NCBI GenBank assembly: GCA_038087875.1
Contig: CM075988.1
Span: 25,856,001-25,920,000, forward strand
Length of the DNA: 64,000 nt
Origin: Malacoraja senta
Taxonomy: Eukaryota
Direction of reading: 5' to 3'
Part shown: positions 1,746 through 41,367 of the stretch, piece by piece
How positions within the stretch are numbered: position 1 is the first letter of the stretch
Layout of the letters: every line of letters begins with the position of its first letter
Program-made: the position numbers and the translations under genes
The notes under the pieces: generated by a model
What the model was told of the DNA's origin: nothing
Databases searched by the model: none
The model's input: only the letters and a program-made list of their open reading frames with translations

Positions 1746-2450
1746 ACAAATAGTTTCCCCTAATAGTCATAACCCCAAGGTCTCATTTGTTGGTAAAAGA
1801 TCTTGTAGGCTGTCAGTGACGCTGATGTGGGCTGTTGTATTTCTAGAAAACAGTCCGTATCGCGATTTGCCGTAACCCCAGGCTACACATGCATCAAGAA
1901 CCGTGGTGAAAAAATAAATATTGTATAGTTATTTACTTTGCACATAAATTTCATGAAAGCAAATTTTAATCAAATATTTGGGTAGTGATTAGTGAATTTT
2001 ACAAGGGCAAATTTCCTTAACCTGAATAGCTGTAATGCAGGGGTTGCTTATATTTTAACAAAGTTCAAAAGGTTTGCTTATGGCGCTGACATAAATGTAA
2101 CCTTCAACCAAGATCAGCAAAATAAGTTATCTGTTCATGAAGCTTGGTGTCGGTGCTTCCAAGGTGCATGTTGTATCTCCAGCATCAAAACTGTAACAAT
2201 GAGAAAGTCAAAGTCAATTTTATTTGTCACATGCACTCGAAGGAATATCTCACTGGCTGCAAAATGCTGTTGGATTGTGAAAGGGAATTTGAGGGGAGAG
2301 GACACATGAACAGGTTTGTGTAGGAAGGAACTGCAGATGCTGGTTTACACCAAAGATAGACACAAAATGCTGGAGTAACATGATGTGTTTGGTGTGGGCA
2401 CTGTTCGATGTTGAGATTTTAACGAAGCCAATTTCTCTCTGTTTCAGCAG

Positions 2451-4458
2451 ATCCAATTGAAGAGCACAGGAAGAGGCTGAAGGCTTGGTTTGGTGACATG
2501 TCCATTGAGGAGAAGCAGTTTGGATTGTTTTCTGTGGGAAACTGGCATGGGGAGCCAGTGATCGCTGAGAGCTCTCCTGAAGAGAACCGGGATCTCACGA
2601 CAAAATTCGGAATCTACAGCCACATTGACCCTCAAGAATCCAAGATCATAAAGCTTGATGAAGTGTTCACCACTCGGTCCGTTGAGCCTCCTGTGAAGAA
2701 TGTGGTTTTGTTTGGGATAGTGGGAATGGGCAAAGACCTGGTGGTTCAGAGACTTGTCCTGGACTGGTGCGATGGGCGCTTCAATCAGTTTGATCTAATC
2801 CTCCCCTTCTCCTGTGAAGATTTGTCATCTCAGAGTCAGTCCATTTCTCTCAATAGGTTAATCTGTCAAAAGTATACCCAGCTGAAAACGATAGTGCCTC
2901 AAATTGGGTCGGGAAAAGTCGGGAACATCCTCTTCATTTTCAATGGACTGGAGCAGTTGAAACTTGACTTCCGGCTCTTGAAGAACAGACTGTGCAATGA
3001 TCCAAATGAGCCGCTGCCACCCGACAACTTGGTGGTCAACCTGGTCCGCAAGTACATGCTCCCGGACGCCAACATCCTGGTCACCATGCGGCCCTCAGCC
3101 TTGGATTCCATCCCTGCCGAGTATGTGGACCGCTACACCCGCAGCTGTGGCTTCAGTGACGTTGAGCAGCAGTATCTGTACTTCAGGAACCGCCTGCAAG
3201 TGTCGGAGGACAATCAAACCAACGAAGACTTGATGAAGATGCTGTATAAGAATCTGCTGAGACAAAAGCAGCTCACAGCAGGCTGCTTTTTGCCATCGTA
3301 CTGCTGGCTCATCTGCGCCACACTGCACTTCCTCCACTTCCCCACTGCAAACATGCCCATCCGGACGCTGACTGGCCTTTACACAAACTTCCTACGGTTA
3401 CACTTTGCTGCTGGGTATTTGGATTTCGGCAGTCAACAAAACATCTCAATTGTGCGATACATTGCCAAGACGGTTGGCAAGCTCGCTTACGAGGGGATAG
3501 AAGGAAAGAAGGTGCTCTTCAGTGAAGAGGACCTGGAAAGATCCTTTGGATTGGATGGCATGACAGAGGAAGAGTTGAACCAGGTAACTGATTTTCAGAT
3601 TGATATGCTGGGCTTTTTCATGTCTCCCATTGCTCAGCAAAGCAGCGACCCTCTCCTCCGGTTCACCATCCCCGCGATGCAGGAGTACTTGGCCGCCCTG
3701 TACGTTGTCTTGGGTGAGAAGAAATCTATCCTGGAGCAAGTTGGAAGTACCATATCCGCCACCATTGGTAAAGCAAGTGAGGACGTGACGGCTGTCTTGT
3801 CCGTTGTCTCGAAACTGCTGCCGTTCAGAATTCTAGCATTCGTGAGGCTCATCAATATCTTCCCGCGGATCTTCAGAAAAATCAGCGGGAAGAGCAAGAA
3901 GGCCATTGCCAACACCATGGTCTCTGAAATGTTCAGGGAAGAGGATGAGTTCAACAAGGATGTTTTGGAGCAGATCAATGCTCGCATCCTCGGCAGAGAG
4001 AGAGAAGGTGTTGGGGAGGTGATCGGGGAAAGAATAGACGCTCAGAGCTTTGAACTCTTCCCAACGTTCATGGCCGGGTTACTGGCCCCGGAGAACCGCT
4101 CCCTTCTAGAACAGCTTAACTGTACAATAAAGAACGTAACTGTGCGTGAAATAGCCAGCCACTTGAAGATGCATCTCAGCAACACTGTCAGTAGGAAGTT
4201 GGCTCCGTCAGAGCTCATGGACCTCCAGCTCTTCCTGTATGAGCTACAGAATGATGCTTTAGCTGGAGAGATCAGTAGAACCTTAAAGAGCTTAAATTTG
4301 TCTCAAGTTAAGATGACTTTATTGAAGAGCTTTGTGATTACATCAGTCATGAGTACATCGAACCATCCAATCGAGATGATGAACTTCAGTTTGTGCAACT
4401 TAACTGGCGACTACATAAAAATCCTCCAGCCCATTCTGCTCAGATGCAAGGATTTAAA
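2451..4458 (+). CDS. NLRX1: NLR family member X1, large exon (NACHT, HD1/WH/HD2, start of LRR)
   Basis: Acceptor gtttcagcag (tandem AG, 2448 is an alternative start); donor aa|gtaagt. Translation DPIEEHRKRLKAWF..EEKQFG, LDWCDGRF..LPFSCEDLSS, NLVRKYMLP, CGFSD, FTIPAMQEYLAALYVVLG, FELFPTFMAGLL matches human NLRX1 as I recall it. Confidence 0.95.
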
Positions 4459-4621
4459 GTAAGTCTTCCGATTCTGCAATCGAAATGCTGTTGTTTACAG
4501 CCAAGTGAAAGCTGCACCCAGTGCAGAGCTGATGAAACGTCGACAACATGAAAAGTCAACCCTTTTTCTTGAAAGATTCTATTAGAACAGAGTACTTTCA
4601 TCATTATCCGTGCTCTTTAAT

Positions 4622-4675
4622 GGGGTGGGAGATTGCAACCTTCACCTGGTCCGCCCTGTTTCGATGAATGCAATC
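4622..4675 (+). ncRNA. HDV/CPEB3-like self-cleaving ribozyme fold (catalytic C replaced by T in this copy)
   Basis: P1 GGGGTGG/CCGCCCT with G1.U wobble; P2 GATTGCA/TGCAATC; P3 ACC/GGT; L3 TTCACCT; GT after P1; minimal P4 around TTCG; J4/2 TGAA. Confidence 0.8.
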
Positions 4676-4764
4676 AACCCGGCGTGCACAATCAAATAAG
4701 ATCCAATAGAACAAGTTGTCCGACAACTTTAGGCTGTGCTCACCATACGCAAGAAGAAGAAAAA
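4622..4764 (+). mobile_element. Short non-autonomous non-LTR retroelement with 5' HDV-like ribozyme and (AAG)n tail, copy 1
   Basis: TSD gtgctctttaat(g) at 4610-4622 and 4765-4777; aagaagaagaaaaa tail; near-identical second copy at 41230-41367. Confidence 0.88.
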
Positions 4765-5009
4765 GTGCTCTTTAATGCAGAGCTGCAAGTTCACAGTCGT
4801 GCTGAGAAGTCTCAATATGGGCTTCTTGACCAAACCATCTGCCCAACACTGGCTTAGCTCCATTCTCTTTAACAGTGGGTTTGGTACAAGTGTGGGTCAA
4901 ACCTGTGGAGCCGGATGCTCAACATCTTCAGGATACTTCTCATGGACCACAAACTCTCCTCCTCTTTCCCTCTCCAAACTGTTGACAACCTTTGTGGTTT
5001 TTCATAAGA

Positions 5010-5225
5010 ATTAGGCCATTCAGCCCATCAAGACTTCTCCGCCATTCAATCATGGCTGATCTATCTTTCCCCCTCAACCCCATTCTCCTGCCTTCTCCCC
5101 ATAACCTCTGACACCACTACTAATCAACAACCTATCAATCTCCACACTAAAAATATAATTTGACTTGGCCCCCACAGCCTTTCTGTGGCGATGAATTCCA
5201 CAGATTCACCACCCTCTGGCTAAAG
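5010..5225 (-). mobile_element. CR1 LINE 3' fragment
   Basis: Same 3'UTR/ORF2 end as the other CR1 pieces (gaattccacagattcaccaccctctg ... aattaggccattcagccc). Confidence 0.75.
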
Positions 5226-5301
5226 ATGGTTTTGGTCATTTTTGATTGTTGAGTATTGCCATTTATTTTCTAAATTAAAATGTTTCTGCTTTTTATTGCA
5301 G

Positions 5302-5388
5302 CTTACAGTTCAACAATTTAGGACTTGATGCCTGGGGGGAGATTGGCAATCTGCTACTGGATCCAAATTGTGCAATTGAAAAGCTATG
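5302..5388 (+). CDS. NLRX1: NLRX1 LRR exon (87 nt)
   Basis: ttttattgcag| ... tg|gtaaga, phase 2/2; encodes (N)LQFNNLGLDAWGEIGNLLLDPNCAIEKL(W). Confidence 0.93.
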
Positions 5389-5732
5389 GTAAGACCAGGT
5401 CTTGGTTAATGATAAATCTTACTCATTTGCCTTCCGTGATCTAAGGTTTTGGTTTAAAAGGCTGAGTTGTTTTTCTGCACTTTGTACGTAGCAACGTACG
5501 TCATCTACCCAAATGCACTGTGGCTGTAGTCAAGGTATGCAAATAGTGGCCACACAAAGGGCACCAACAAAGTTACAAAGAATCCTGTGTCGGGTATGAT
5601 TGGTCATTGGACTGTTAAATAGTTGACTGACCATTGTCTGTAAGTGTAAAGAGAATTACATGTCTTCATTGAAAAACGAATCCATTCAGATTTATTCTGG
5701 GCTATAATTTGTGATCCTTGTTTAACCCTCAG

Positions 5733-41229: not shown

Positions 41230-41283
41230 TGGGTGGGAGATTGCAACCTTCACGTGGTCCGCCCTGTTTCGACGAAAGCAATC
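41230..41283 (+). ncRNA. HDV/CPEB3-like ribozyme fold (catalytic C intact)
   Basis: (T)GGGTGG GA GATTGCA ACC TTCACGT GGT CCGCCCT GTTTCGA C GAA AGCAATC; catalytic C at 41273. Confidence 0.8.
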
Positions 41284-41367
41284 AAACTGGCGTGCTCAAT
41301 CAAATAAGATCCAATAGAACAAGTGGTCCTACAACTTTAGGCTGTGCACGCCACACGCAAGAAGAAG
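41230..41367 (+). mobile_element. Short retroelement with 5' HDV-like ribozyme and (AAG)n tail, copy 2
   Basis: Colinear with copy 1; TSD ggcagtggat (41220-41229) / ggctgtggat (41367-41376); interrupts the CR1 RT coding sequence. Confidence 0.88.

What the first reader, a model, noticed from the sequence alone, without database searches (positions are those of the whole stretch)
4610..4777. Ribozyme-headed SINE: a ~140-nt retroelement whose 5' end is a minimal HDV/CPEB3-like ribozyme (NLRX1 intron)
Seen: a 12-13-bp TSD (gtgctctttaat[g]) brackets an insert with an (AAG)n tail and no tRNA or 7SL head. Its first 54 nt give the nested double-pseudoknot order P1 GGGGUGG (4622-28) / J1/2 GA / P2 GAUUGCA / P3 ACC / L3 UUCACCU / GGU / P1' CCGCCCU / GU / tiny P4 (UUCG) / UGAA / P2' UGCAAUC. 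G4622 pairs with U4657, the canonical cleavage-site wobble, and the element starts at that G. Established: HDV-family ribozymes cleave 5' of a G.U pair and form the 5' ends of R2, some RTE and L1Tc/ingi retrotransposons and their short derivatives; the CPEB3 ribozyme has the L3 UUCACGU and GU after P1. Inference: this is a non-autonomous family that cuts itself out of host read-through transcripts instead of using a Pol III promoter and is mobilised by an AAG-tailed LINE. I do not know of this being described in cartilaginous fish. This copy has T at the catalytic C (4665, consistent with CpG decay) and is probably inactive.
Basis: partly seen in the sequence, partly recalled or inferred. Interest (0 to 1): 0.92.

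Follow-up and report, generated by a model that had tools for sequence, protein, structure and literature searches.

The report
Ribozyme-headed mini-retrotransposon in a skate genome
A 143-base jumping element in an intron of a skate-like fish's NLRX1 gene belongs to a family of thousands of copies that appear to cut themselves out of host transcripts with a tiny HDV-type ribozyme, a trick already known from other retrotransposons.

Summary
Window 4622-4764 is a 143-nt insert between identical 13-bp target duplications. It lies in sense orientation, about 160 nt downstream of an NLRX1 exon. It is one copy of a young family: 5,418 exact matches to nt 1-23 and 5,837 to nt 8-30.

About 90% of sampled copies start at the same G. 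Most copies carry C at the catalytic position where the window copy has T, and the CPEB3-type L3 loop. The partner is a ~3.1-kb RTE-like LINE with one endonuclease-RT reading frame. It shares both the 5' head (SINE nt 9-81 matched) and the last ~30-45 nt, so the element is an internally deleted LINE.

Two sister LINE families (47% and 40% RT identity) begin with differently sequenced heads of the same fold. Eleven of 17 P1/P2/P3 pairs change on both sides. These heads hit Rfam's CPEB3 and HDV models below threshold (E 0.024 to 1.5).

In single-cell RNA libraries, 1,457 and 1,251 reads have loose ends before nt 1 whose consensus is a template-switch oligo, so RNAs start there. Catalysis is untested, and bulk RNA-seq shows much uncut read-through.

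Verdict: a new member of a known kind.

The parts
4610..4622 (+). Left target-site duplication (13 bp; the last g is also the element's nt 1)
   Evidence: Identical to 4765-4777. 59 of 66 near-full copies held have a TSD of 7-16 bp (mode 12), and 52 of those abut nt 1.
4622..4675 (+). 54-nt HDV-like ribozyme head. P1 4622-28/4651-57; J1/2 4629-30; P2 4631-37/4669-75; P3 4638-40/4648-50; L3 4641-47; GU 4658-59; linker 4660-64; J4/2 4665-68.
   Evidence: Only descriptor hit in the window. A sister copy aligns end to end with Rfam RF02682 over exactly nt 1-54 (14.4 bits, E 0.49, below the gathering score of 44).
4665..4665 (+). Catalytic-C position (family nt 44). It is T in this copy, so this copy is probably dead.
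   Evidence: C in 26 of 28 unselected family members. Fewer than 10 in 100 RNA reads differ from C here (no row for place 1544). It is a CpG site; TG and CA forms are seen in other copies.
4676..4702 (+). Stretch shared with the partner LINE's 5' UTR just downstream of the ribozyme (family nt 55-81)
   Evidence: SINE nt 9-81 aligns with L093 1983-2055, immediately upstream of the LINE's ATG at L093 2082.
4703..4722 (+). Short linker. It includes the 5' arm (4713-4718) and loop of a hairpin aagttg/caactt.
   Evidence: Read from the sequence. No match in the LINE 5' end; partial likeness to the LINE's C-terminal coding end (L076).
4723..4750 (+). 3' recognition module shared with the LINE's extreme 3' end
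   Evidence: SINE nt 102-133 matches L092 6515-6546 at 90.6%. The same letters end the LINE fragment in L076.
4751..4764 (+). (AAG)n-type tail
   Evidence: tails of 3-10 AAG units in sister copies.
4765..4777 (+). Right target-site duplication
2423..4462 (+). Host NLRX1 exon (NACHT). The element lies in the following intron, on the same strand.
   Evidence: Pfam NACHT E 1.4e-20. NLRX1 of a skate at 92% identity.
41230..41367 (+). Second copy of the same family in the window. It keeps C44 but has A at nt 48, which breaks one P2 pair.
   Evidence: 92-93% identity over nt 2-138. 10-bp TSD with one mismatch.

Best explanation
The insert is a dead copy of a non-autonomous non-LTR retrotransposon. 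It was made by internal deletion of an RTE-like LINE: about 81 nt of the LINE's 5' end joined to its last 30-45 nt plus an (AAG)n tail.

Proposed mechanism:
1. The family has no promoter of its own (inferred). Copies lying in sense orientation inside transcribed DNA, such as this NLRX1 intron, are transcribed as part of host RNAs.
2. The first 54 nt fold into a minimal, P4-less HDV-type nested double pseudoknot. C44 in J4/2 catalyses cleavage just 5' of G1, as is established for the HDV family.
3. Cleavage frees an RNA whose first base is the element's first base.
4. The LINE's reverse transcriptase recognises the shared 3' module and copies the RNA into a new site by target-primed reverse transcription. 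This leaves a 10-16 bp duplication.
5. Because the RNA is short and its 5' end is fixed by the ribozyme, most new copies again carry a whole ribozyme.

Shown here: family, TSDs, sharp 5' ends, LINE partner, fold conservation with compensatory changes, and RNA 5' ends at nt 1.

Inferred: catalysis, lack of a promoter, and recognition by the LINE protein.
For: Retroelement
- 13-bp TSD. TSDs in 59 of 66 copies.
- 5,418 exact matches to nt 1-23 and 5,837 to nt 8-30, with reversed-pattern controls at 0.

Sharp 5' end
- 40 of 40 scored copies start at nt 1.
- 26 of 28 unselected members reach nt 1-2.
- 69 of the first 100 nt 8-30 matches also have exact nt 1-7 (compared by hand). That is about what 4-5% divergence alone would leave.

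Ribozyme
- The descriptor matches only this family in 362 kb of real sequence, apart from one TA microsatellite. Shuffles give a mean of 1.0.
- C44 is present in 26 of 28 members.
- The common variants in RNA reads within nt 1-54 fall at nt 8, 32, 41, 42 and 45. These are J1/2, a U.G to U-A swap, the linker, and the N of C-N-A-A. None breaks P1, P2, P3 or L3, or changes C44.
- Rfam's best ribozyme hit is RF02682, aligned to nt 1-54 exactly.

Covariation
- Two sister LINE families start with the same architecture in other letters. 48 of 50 cells are standard pairs.
- Two-sided changes occur at 3 of 7 P1, 6 of 7 P2 and 2 of 3 P3 positions.
- Their heads hit CPEB3_ribozyme (19.9 bits, E 0.024), HDV_ribozyme (21.9 bits, E 1.5) and RF02682 (21.3 bits, E 0.27), each over the full model.
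- 31 of 40 scored copies of the 47% family start at its G1.

LINE partner
- RVT_1 at E 2.4e-23. An endonuclease-like stretch and RT in one frame set. The head sits 107 nt before the ATG.
- Homologues are ~1000-aa endonuclease+RT proteins on 3.2-3.4-kb contigs.

RNA
- In two single-cell libraries, 1,457 and 1,251 reads have loose ends just before nt 1. Their consensus is the full 30-letter template-switch oligo (agreement 0.69 and 0.65).
- Sense reads outnumber antisense 3-7 fold. The oligo was identified in a methods passage.
Against: - No cleavage assay has been done.
- All Rfam scores are below the gathering thresholds (14.4 vs 44; 19.9 vs 35; 21.9 vs 50; 21.3 vs 44). The window copy itself gives no ribozyme hit at E<=10.
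- In two bulk oligo-dT RNA-seq runs, 727 and 712 reads at the 5' edge run on into heterogeneous flanks. The tool lists no place where many molecules begin (table 6). Much family RNA is therefore uncut read-through.
- Template-switch junctions show a 5' end, not how it arose. A transcription start at nt 1 would look the same. A GGG-ended oligo could also mis-prime on the GGGG head, although the loose part already contains the oligo's own GGG.
- The helices of the sister families were fitted by hand, which favours finding pairs.
- Each sister family has one A x C mismatch in P1, and the 47% family has G-C instead of G.U at the cleavage site.
- Five of six partner-LINE copies examined lack the first 8-12 nt.
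- The RNA runs are from a coded organism that may not be the window's species.
Confidence: 0.8

Rival explanations
1. The head is an internal promoter, Pol II-type as in L1Tc Pr77 or Pol III. RNAs start at nt 1 by initiation, and the HDV-like fold is not catalytic.
For: Template-switch junctions at nt 1 fit a transcription start equally well. Many bulk reads cross the boundary uncut. In L1Tc the same 77 nt are both promoter and ribozyme (abstract of PMC3383444 in the listing), so a promoter role is possible alongside cleavage. By eye, nt 38-43 give a 5-of-6 partial B-box-like match (no tool result).
Against: No tRNA, 7SL or 5S likeness. The same head leads a 3.1-kb coding LINE, which Pol III would not transcribe (inference). 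Three families keep the pairings while the letters change, which a promoter does not require. HDV-family models are the specific Rfam hits.
Confidence: 0.1
2. The head is simply LINE 5' UTR carried along because the LINE protein or the ribosome needs it. The sharp 5' ends arise from some other processing, or from full-length copying of a short RNA.
For: HDV-like heads have been proposed to aid translation initiation of R2 and L1Tc (review PMC6765202, passages). In the 47% family the ATG lies inside the fold, at nt 9-11.
Against: A non-coding 143-nt element has no use for translation yet keeps the whole fold and C44. Its 5' end coincides to the base with the canonical cleavage site in about 90% of copies.
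Confidence: 0.07
3. The fold is a chance resemblance or an artefact of reading.
For: All Rfam scores are below threshold.
Against: Descriptor false-hit rate is about 1.4e-6 per position. The match sits at the exact first base of a retroelement. The fold recurs in two sister LINE families.
Confidence: 0.02

Closest known systems
HDV-like ribozymes at the 5' ends of RTE, baggins and R2 LINEs (Ruminski et al. 2011; Eickbush & Eickbush 2010), as summarised in review PMC6765202 (passages read). The originals are not held.
   Same: The ribozyme is the first thing in the element. The element has no promoter of its own and is freed from read-through transcripts. The partner here is RTE-like in build: one ~1000-aa endonuclease+RT frame, ~3.1 kb, and a short 5' UTR.
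   Different: The host is a cartilaginous fish. The head lacks P4 and is only 54 nt. The short derivative far outnumbers the LINE. RT phylogeny was not done, so 'RTE' rests on architecture.
L1Tc and its truncated NARTc in Trypanosoma cruzi (L1TcRz/Pr77) (abstracts of PMC3185411 and PMC3383444 in the listing)
   Same: The autonomous LINE and its short non-coding derivative share the same HDV-like 5' head.
   Different: Different LINE clade (ingi/L1Tc), poly(A) tails, and polycistronic host transcription. Pr77 is also a proven promoter, which is untested here.
R2 SIDEs: non-autonomous internal-deletion derivatives of R2 (abstract of PMC3414825 in the listing)
   Same: Made by internal deletion, keeping the 5' ribozyme and the 3' protein-binding end.
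   Different: R2 and its SIDEs insert only in 28S rDNA. This family is dispersed, with thousands of copies.
Mammalian CPEB3 ribozyme (Rfam RF00622)
   Same: The family's L3 (UUCACGU), the GU after P1' and the CGAA before P2' equal the Rfam consensus printed. The sister 47% LINE family also shares GGGGG in P1 and GCG/CGC in P3, and scores 19.9 bits (E 0.024) over the full model.
   Different: CPEB3 is a single conserved intronic copy in mammals with a normal P4. The SINE head gives no CPEB3 hit at E<=10. The score is below the gathering cut-off of 35.
Minimal HDV-like ribozymes, including phage theta ribozymes (abstracts of 10.1101/2023.06.13.544163 and PMC10879173 in the listing)
   Same: A very short HDV-type core with little or no P4.
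   Different: Those are bacterial or phage RNAs next to tRNAs, not retrotransposon heads.
Schistosome SINE-like elements with hammerhead ribozymes (review PMC6765202, passage)
   Same: A short non-coding retroposon that carries a self-cleaving ribozyme.
   Different: The ribozyme is a hammerhead. Those elements are Pol III-transcribed and work in tandem arrays.

Membership tests
HDV-like self-cleaving ribozymes | Nested double-pseudoknot order P1-P2-P3-P3'-P1'-(P4)-P2' with continuous pairings | tested here: met
   17 of 17 standard pairs in a sister copy. The descriptor hit is specific to this family. P4 is absent: a 5-nt linker that does not fold.
HDV-like self-cleaving ribozymes | Catalytic C in J4/2 | tested here: met
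   Met for the family: C44 in 26 of 28 members. Not met in the window copy, which has T at 4665.
HDV-like self-cleaving ribozymes | Cleavage immediately 5' of the first P1 nucleotide, usually a G.U pair | tested here: inconclusive
   G1 pairs with U36. Element 5' ends and RNA 5' ends coincide with that bond. The chemistry of the end (5'-OH) is not known.
HDV-like self-cleaving ribozymes | Self-cleavage in vitro with divalent metal, lost on C-to-U change | not testable with these tools
   Needs a bench assay.
HDV-like self-cleaving ribozymes | Score above the gathering threshold of an Rfam HDV-family model | tested here: not met
   RF02682 14.4 bits against 44. Nothing for the window copy. These models do not encode the pseudoknot and expect a P4.
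Mammalian CPEB3 ribozyme (RF00622) | Rfam score of at least 35 bits; orthologous intronic position in CPEB3 | tested here: not met
   No hit for the SINE head. The sister LINE head scores 19.9 bits. The host gene here is NLRX1.
Canonical SINE | 5' head derived from a Pol III gene (tRNA, 7SL, 5S) with an internal promoter | tested here: not met
   ARAGORN finds none. No such Rfam match at E<=10.
Canonical SINE | Short, non-coding, TSD-flanked, with a 3' end shared with a LINE | tested here: met
   143 nt. TSDs. 3' module shared with the LINE.
Internally deleted LINE derivatives (SIDE / NARTc type) | Both ends collinear with one autonomous LINE, with the middle missing | tested here: met
   nt 9-81 matches the LINE 5' end. 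nt 102-133 matches the LINE 3' end.
RTE-clade LINE (the partner) | Single ORF with AP-endonuclease and RT, about 3.2 kb, very short UTRs | tested here: met
   About 3.1 kb from the head to the 3' end. ATG 107 nt from nt 1. RVT_1. An endonuclease-like stretch read in translation, with no Pfam scan of that part. Homologues carry PF03372, PF14529 and PF00078 on 3.2-3.4-kb contigs.
RTE-clade LINE (the partner) | RT groups with RTE in a phylogeny | not tested

The most novel reading that the evidence does not exclude
The skate RTE-like LINEs carry heads that are true kin of the mammalian CPEB3 ribozyme. They share the same L3, the GU after P1', the C-N-A-A junction and, in one family, the same P1 and P3 letters. 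On this reading the CPEB3 ribozyme, and perhaps the HDV ribozymes, descend from a domesticated RTE 5' head. The 54-nt P4-less form would then be the smallest natural eukaryotic HDV-type ribozyme. It would be active at thousands of intronic and UTR sites and would cut many host transcripts.
Probability: 0.2. Interest if true: 0.75.

Novelty: new member of a known kind. Interest (0 to 1): 0.5.

Why it matters
It adds a vertebrate example, with copies in the thousands, to the short list of non-autonomous retroposons that use a self-cleaving HDV-type head in place of a Pol III promoter. The autonomous partner is in hand, and RNA 5' ends are seen at the predicted bond.

It offers a natural 54-nt, P4-less HDV-type core for biochemistry. 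Natural C44 and T44 copies can serve as test and control.

Thousands of sense-oriented copies in introns and UTRs could cut host RNAs, which is testable with existing RNA data.

The CPEB3-like core in a sister LINE gives a concrete lead on where the mammalian CPEB3 ribozyme came from.

Tried and rejected
- Rfam on the window copy (4000-5400, E<=10) gave only three weak non-ribozyme matches.
- The search of earlier findings by sequence returned nothing.
- Looking for the LINE through the ribozyme's 3' part followed by non-SINE letters gave 134 hits. Nearly all were SINE copies with small indels.
- The first LINE fragment fetched (L091) had no Pfam hit in 12 frames tested, because it is a short 3' fragment.
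- L100, from the 41% family, is 5'-truncated and uninformative.
- The protein-atlas search gave only 'reverse transcriptase' clusters and no clade.
- The look-up of sequencing runs listed no RNA holder.
- The MAFFT alignment A1 of the four heads misplaced the 3' halves. I therefore did not use the count of structure pairs, fold_alignment or a covariance model, and tabulated pairs by script instead. The first version of that table had a wrong register for one helix and was corrected.
- Ruminski 2011 and Webb 2009 are not held. What I say of them comes from a review's passages.
- Searches for prior description: 'HDV-like' + ribozyme + shark + LINE gave 2 papers, neither on this. A six-term search with skate, elasmobranch and similar terms listed 15 papers, none containing 'ribozyme'. 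'self-cleaving ribozyme' + skate gave 0 papers. Repbase and Dfam could not be consulted.
Only about 300 kb of genome letters could be fetched, so the sister families rest on one copy each plus hit tables.

Full report
**1. What is at the site**

The 13 letters at 4610-4622 recur at 4765-4777. Between them lies a 143-nt insert that ends in an AAG-rich tail.

All listed pairings are present: P1 has seven pairs starting with G4622-U4657, P2 has seven pairs, and P3 has three pairs around a 7-nt loop. Position 4665 is T. The supposed tiny P4 is only a 5-nt linker that does not fold.

The large open frame at 2423-4462 on the same strand carries a NACHT domain. Its best named relatives are NLRX1 of skates and rays (92, 84 and 82% identity) and of sharks (63-75%). 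The element therefore sits in sense orientation, about 160 nt into the intron after an NLRX1 exon of a batoid cartilaginous fish.

**2. It is a family**

The window's own 1.94-Gb assembly gave 1,784 first-look candidates. All 40 scored copies are 94-100% identical and start at query nt 1.

Exact-pattern counts are 5,418 for nt 1-23 and 5,837 for nt 8-30, with reversed-pattern controls at 0. Given about 5% divergence, the true number is probably well above ten thousand (inference).

Of 66 distinct near-full copies held, 59 have target duplications of 7-16 bp (mode 12), and 52 of those abut nt 1.

A set of 30 loci was chosen on the ribozyme's 3' part. Two were chance matches. Of the 28 family members, 26 reach nt 1-2 and two are truncated, at nt 6 and about nt 17.

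Of the first 100 matches to nt 8-30, 69 also match nt 1-7 exactly (hand comparison). That is about what point mutation alone would leave.

Five-prime ends therefore pile up on one base. A second copy lies in the window at 41230-41367.

**3. The head across the family**

Most copies read C at the position where the window has T: 26 of 28, and about nine in ten in the listing, by eye. They have UUCACGU in L3 where the window has UUCACCU. The site is a CpG, and TG and CA variants both occur.

My descriptor of the HDV architecture hit only this family in 362 kb of held sequence, apart from one TA microsatellite. Twenty shuffles gave 0-3 hits each, mean 1.0.

Rfam gives nothing for the window copy. 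For a copy with C44, the best ribozyme hit is the HDV ribozyme model RF02682. It aligns over its full length to nt 1-54 exactly, at 14.4 bits, E 0.49-1.4, far below the gathering score of 44. No tRNA, 7SL or 5S likeness was found.

**4. The autonomous partner**

I searched for the 3' tail preceded by non-SINE letters and found a second kind of element with the same last letters. Its upstream sequence recurs hundreds of times.

One copy (L092) carries an RT (RVT_1, E 2.4e-23). Its 3' end matches SINE nt 102-133.

A longer copy (L093) has SINE nt 9-81 at its 5' end, then a LINE-specific stretch. An ATG lies 107 nt from the expected nt 1. After it come an endonuclease-like region, the RT, and a Cys/His motif near the end of the frame. 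The whole is about 3.1 kb.

Its relatives in the big protein collection are ~1000-aa endonuclease+RT proteins on 3.2-3.4-kb contigs, the best at 73% identity.

This is the RTE build. I did not run a phylogeny. The short element is therefore an internally deleted LINE, not a Pol III-type SINE.

The LINE's head differs from the SINE's at nt 32 (A for G, turning U.G into U-A) and at nt 45 (CUAA for CGAA). Both changes are compatible with the fold.

Oddly, five of the six LINE copies examined begin at nt 9-13, and only one reaches nt 2.

**5. Covariation**

The genome holds sister LINE families whose RTs are 47-48% and 40-41% identical to the partner's. I fetched the predicted 5' end of one copy of each.

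The 47% family:
- It begins with a head of the same order but other letters. P3 is GCG/CGC, P2 is a different 6-bp helix, there is a real 6-bp P4, L3 is UUCUCGU, GU follows P1', and CCAA precedes P2'.
- Its ATG lies inside the fold.
- The family is very young: 40 of 40 scored copies are 98-100% identical, and 31 of them start at that G1.

The 40% family:
- It has P3 ACC/GGU, L3 UCCCCGU, a different 7-bp P1 and 7-bp P2, and a long P4.

Across the three heads, 48 of 50 cells are standard pairs. The two exceptions are A x C mismatches in P1. Two-sided changes occur at 3 of 7 P1, 6 of 7 P2 and 2 of 3 P3 positions. The helices were placed by hand, which favours pairing.

Rfam gives independent support. 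The 47% head hits the CPEB3 ribozyme model (19.9 bits, E 0.024, full model). The 40% head hits HDV_ribozyme (21.9 bits, E 1.5) and RF02682 (21.3 bits, E 0.27). All are below the gathering scores.

**6. RNA**

Words of the element occur in runs labelled with eight coded organisms. I laid four raw RNA runs of one of them on a C44 copy with its flanks.

Single-cell libraries:
- 1,457 and 1,251 reads have loose ends just before nt 1.
- Their consensus is a full 30-letter template-switch oligo (agreement 0.69 and 0.65). A methods passage names the oligo as such.
- Sense reads exceed antisense 3-7 fold.
- 305 and 254 reads carry A-runs after the start of the AAG tail.

Many RNAs therefore begin exactly at nt 1.

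The loose part already contains the oligo's own GGG ahead of the element's GGGG. This argues against strand invasion but does not exclude it.

Bulk oligo-dT runs:
- 727 and 712 reads at the 5' edge continue into heterogeneous flanks.
- The tool lists no pile-up of read starts.

Much RNA is therefore uncut, or comes from dead or passively transcribed copies.

Within nt 1-54, the variants seen in at least 10% of reads fall at nt 8, 32, 41, 42 and 45. None breaks a helix or changes L3 or C44.

**7. Reading**

The best-supported mechanism:
- The element is co-transcribed with host RNA.
- It cleaves itself 5' of G1 by a minimal HDV-type fold.
- The RTE-like LINE's protein recognises the shared 3' module.
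- Target-primed reverse transcription regenerates a full head in most copies.

I put this at 0.8.

The main rival is an internal promoter at the same place, alone or in addition, as in L1Tc (abstract of PMC3383444, listing). The present data cannot exclude it.

**8. Known or new**

A review states that RTE and baggins elements carry HDV-like ribozymes, lack promoters and depend on read-through. [quoted passage not shown]

L1Tc/NARTc and the R2 SIDEs are direct precedents for short derivatives that keep the head (abstracts).

I found nothing on cartilaginous fish. Repbase and Dfam could not be checked.

This is therefore a new member of a known kind. It is notable for its copy number, its P4-less 54-nt core, the in vivo 5' ends, and the CPEB3-like core of a sister LINE.

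Noticed in passing
L098 (G000:C4234:69150-69700, minus strand; head about 302-230): A very young sister LINE family with 47% RT identity. 40 of 40 scored 5' regions are 98-100% identical. Its first ~73 nt hit Rfam's mammalian CPEB3 ribozyme model (19.9 bits, E 0.024), and its ORF start ATG lies at ribozyme nt 9-11.
   Followed up: partly
L099 241-337 (G000:C4794): A third LINE family with 40% RT identity. Its HDV-like head scores 21.9 bits on HDV_ribozyme and 21.3 bits on RF02682. It lies about 25-120 nt upstream of the ORF start.
   Followed up: partly
L093 1983, L095, L096, L097, L069 (partner LINE 5' ends): Five of six partner-LINE copies begin at ribozyme nt 9-13, so they lack the 5' strand of P1. 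About 90% of the short elements start at nt 1. No explanation.
   Followed up: no
L092 4667-4743: An inverted copy of the LINE's 5' head abuts a 5'-truncated LINE body. This looks like a twin-priming-type inversion.
   Followed up: no
L022 1401-1437: An unrelated repeat in the flank is very abundant in all four RNA runs (depth about 2,200-2,700), with sharp edges at 1403/1404 and 1436/1437.
   Followed up: no
window 41230-41367: A second copy of the family on the + strand. Its 10-bp TSD has one mismatch. C44 is kept, but A at nt 48 breaks a P2 pair.
   Followed up: partly
L076 / L091 86-330 (LINE 3' end): The partner LINE's reading frame seems to run through the shared 3' module into the AAG tail without a stop codon in this copy. 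If so, the short element's 3' module is the LINE's C-terminal coding end.
   Followed up: no
window 5177-5253: Weak overlapping Rfam matches (SNORD51, E 4.6; Xist_exon1, E 0.4), far below threshold. Probably chance.
   Followed up: no
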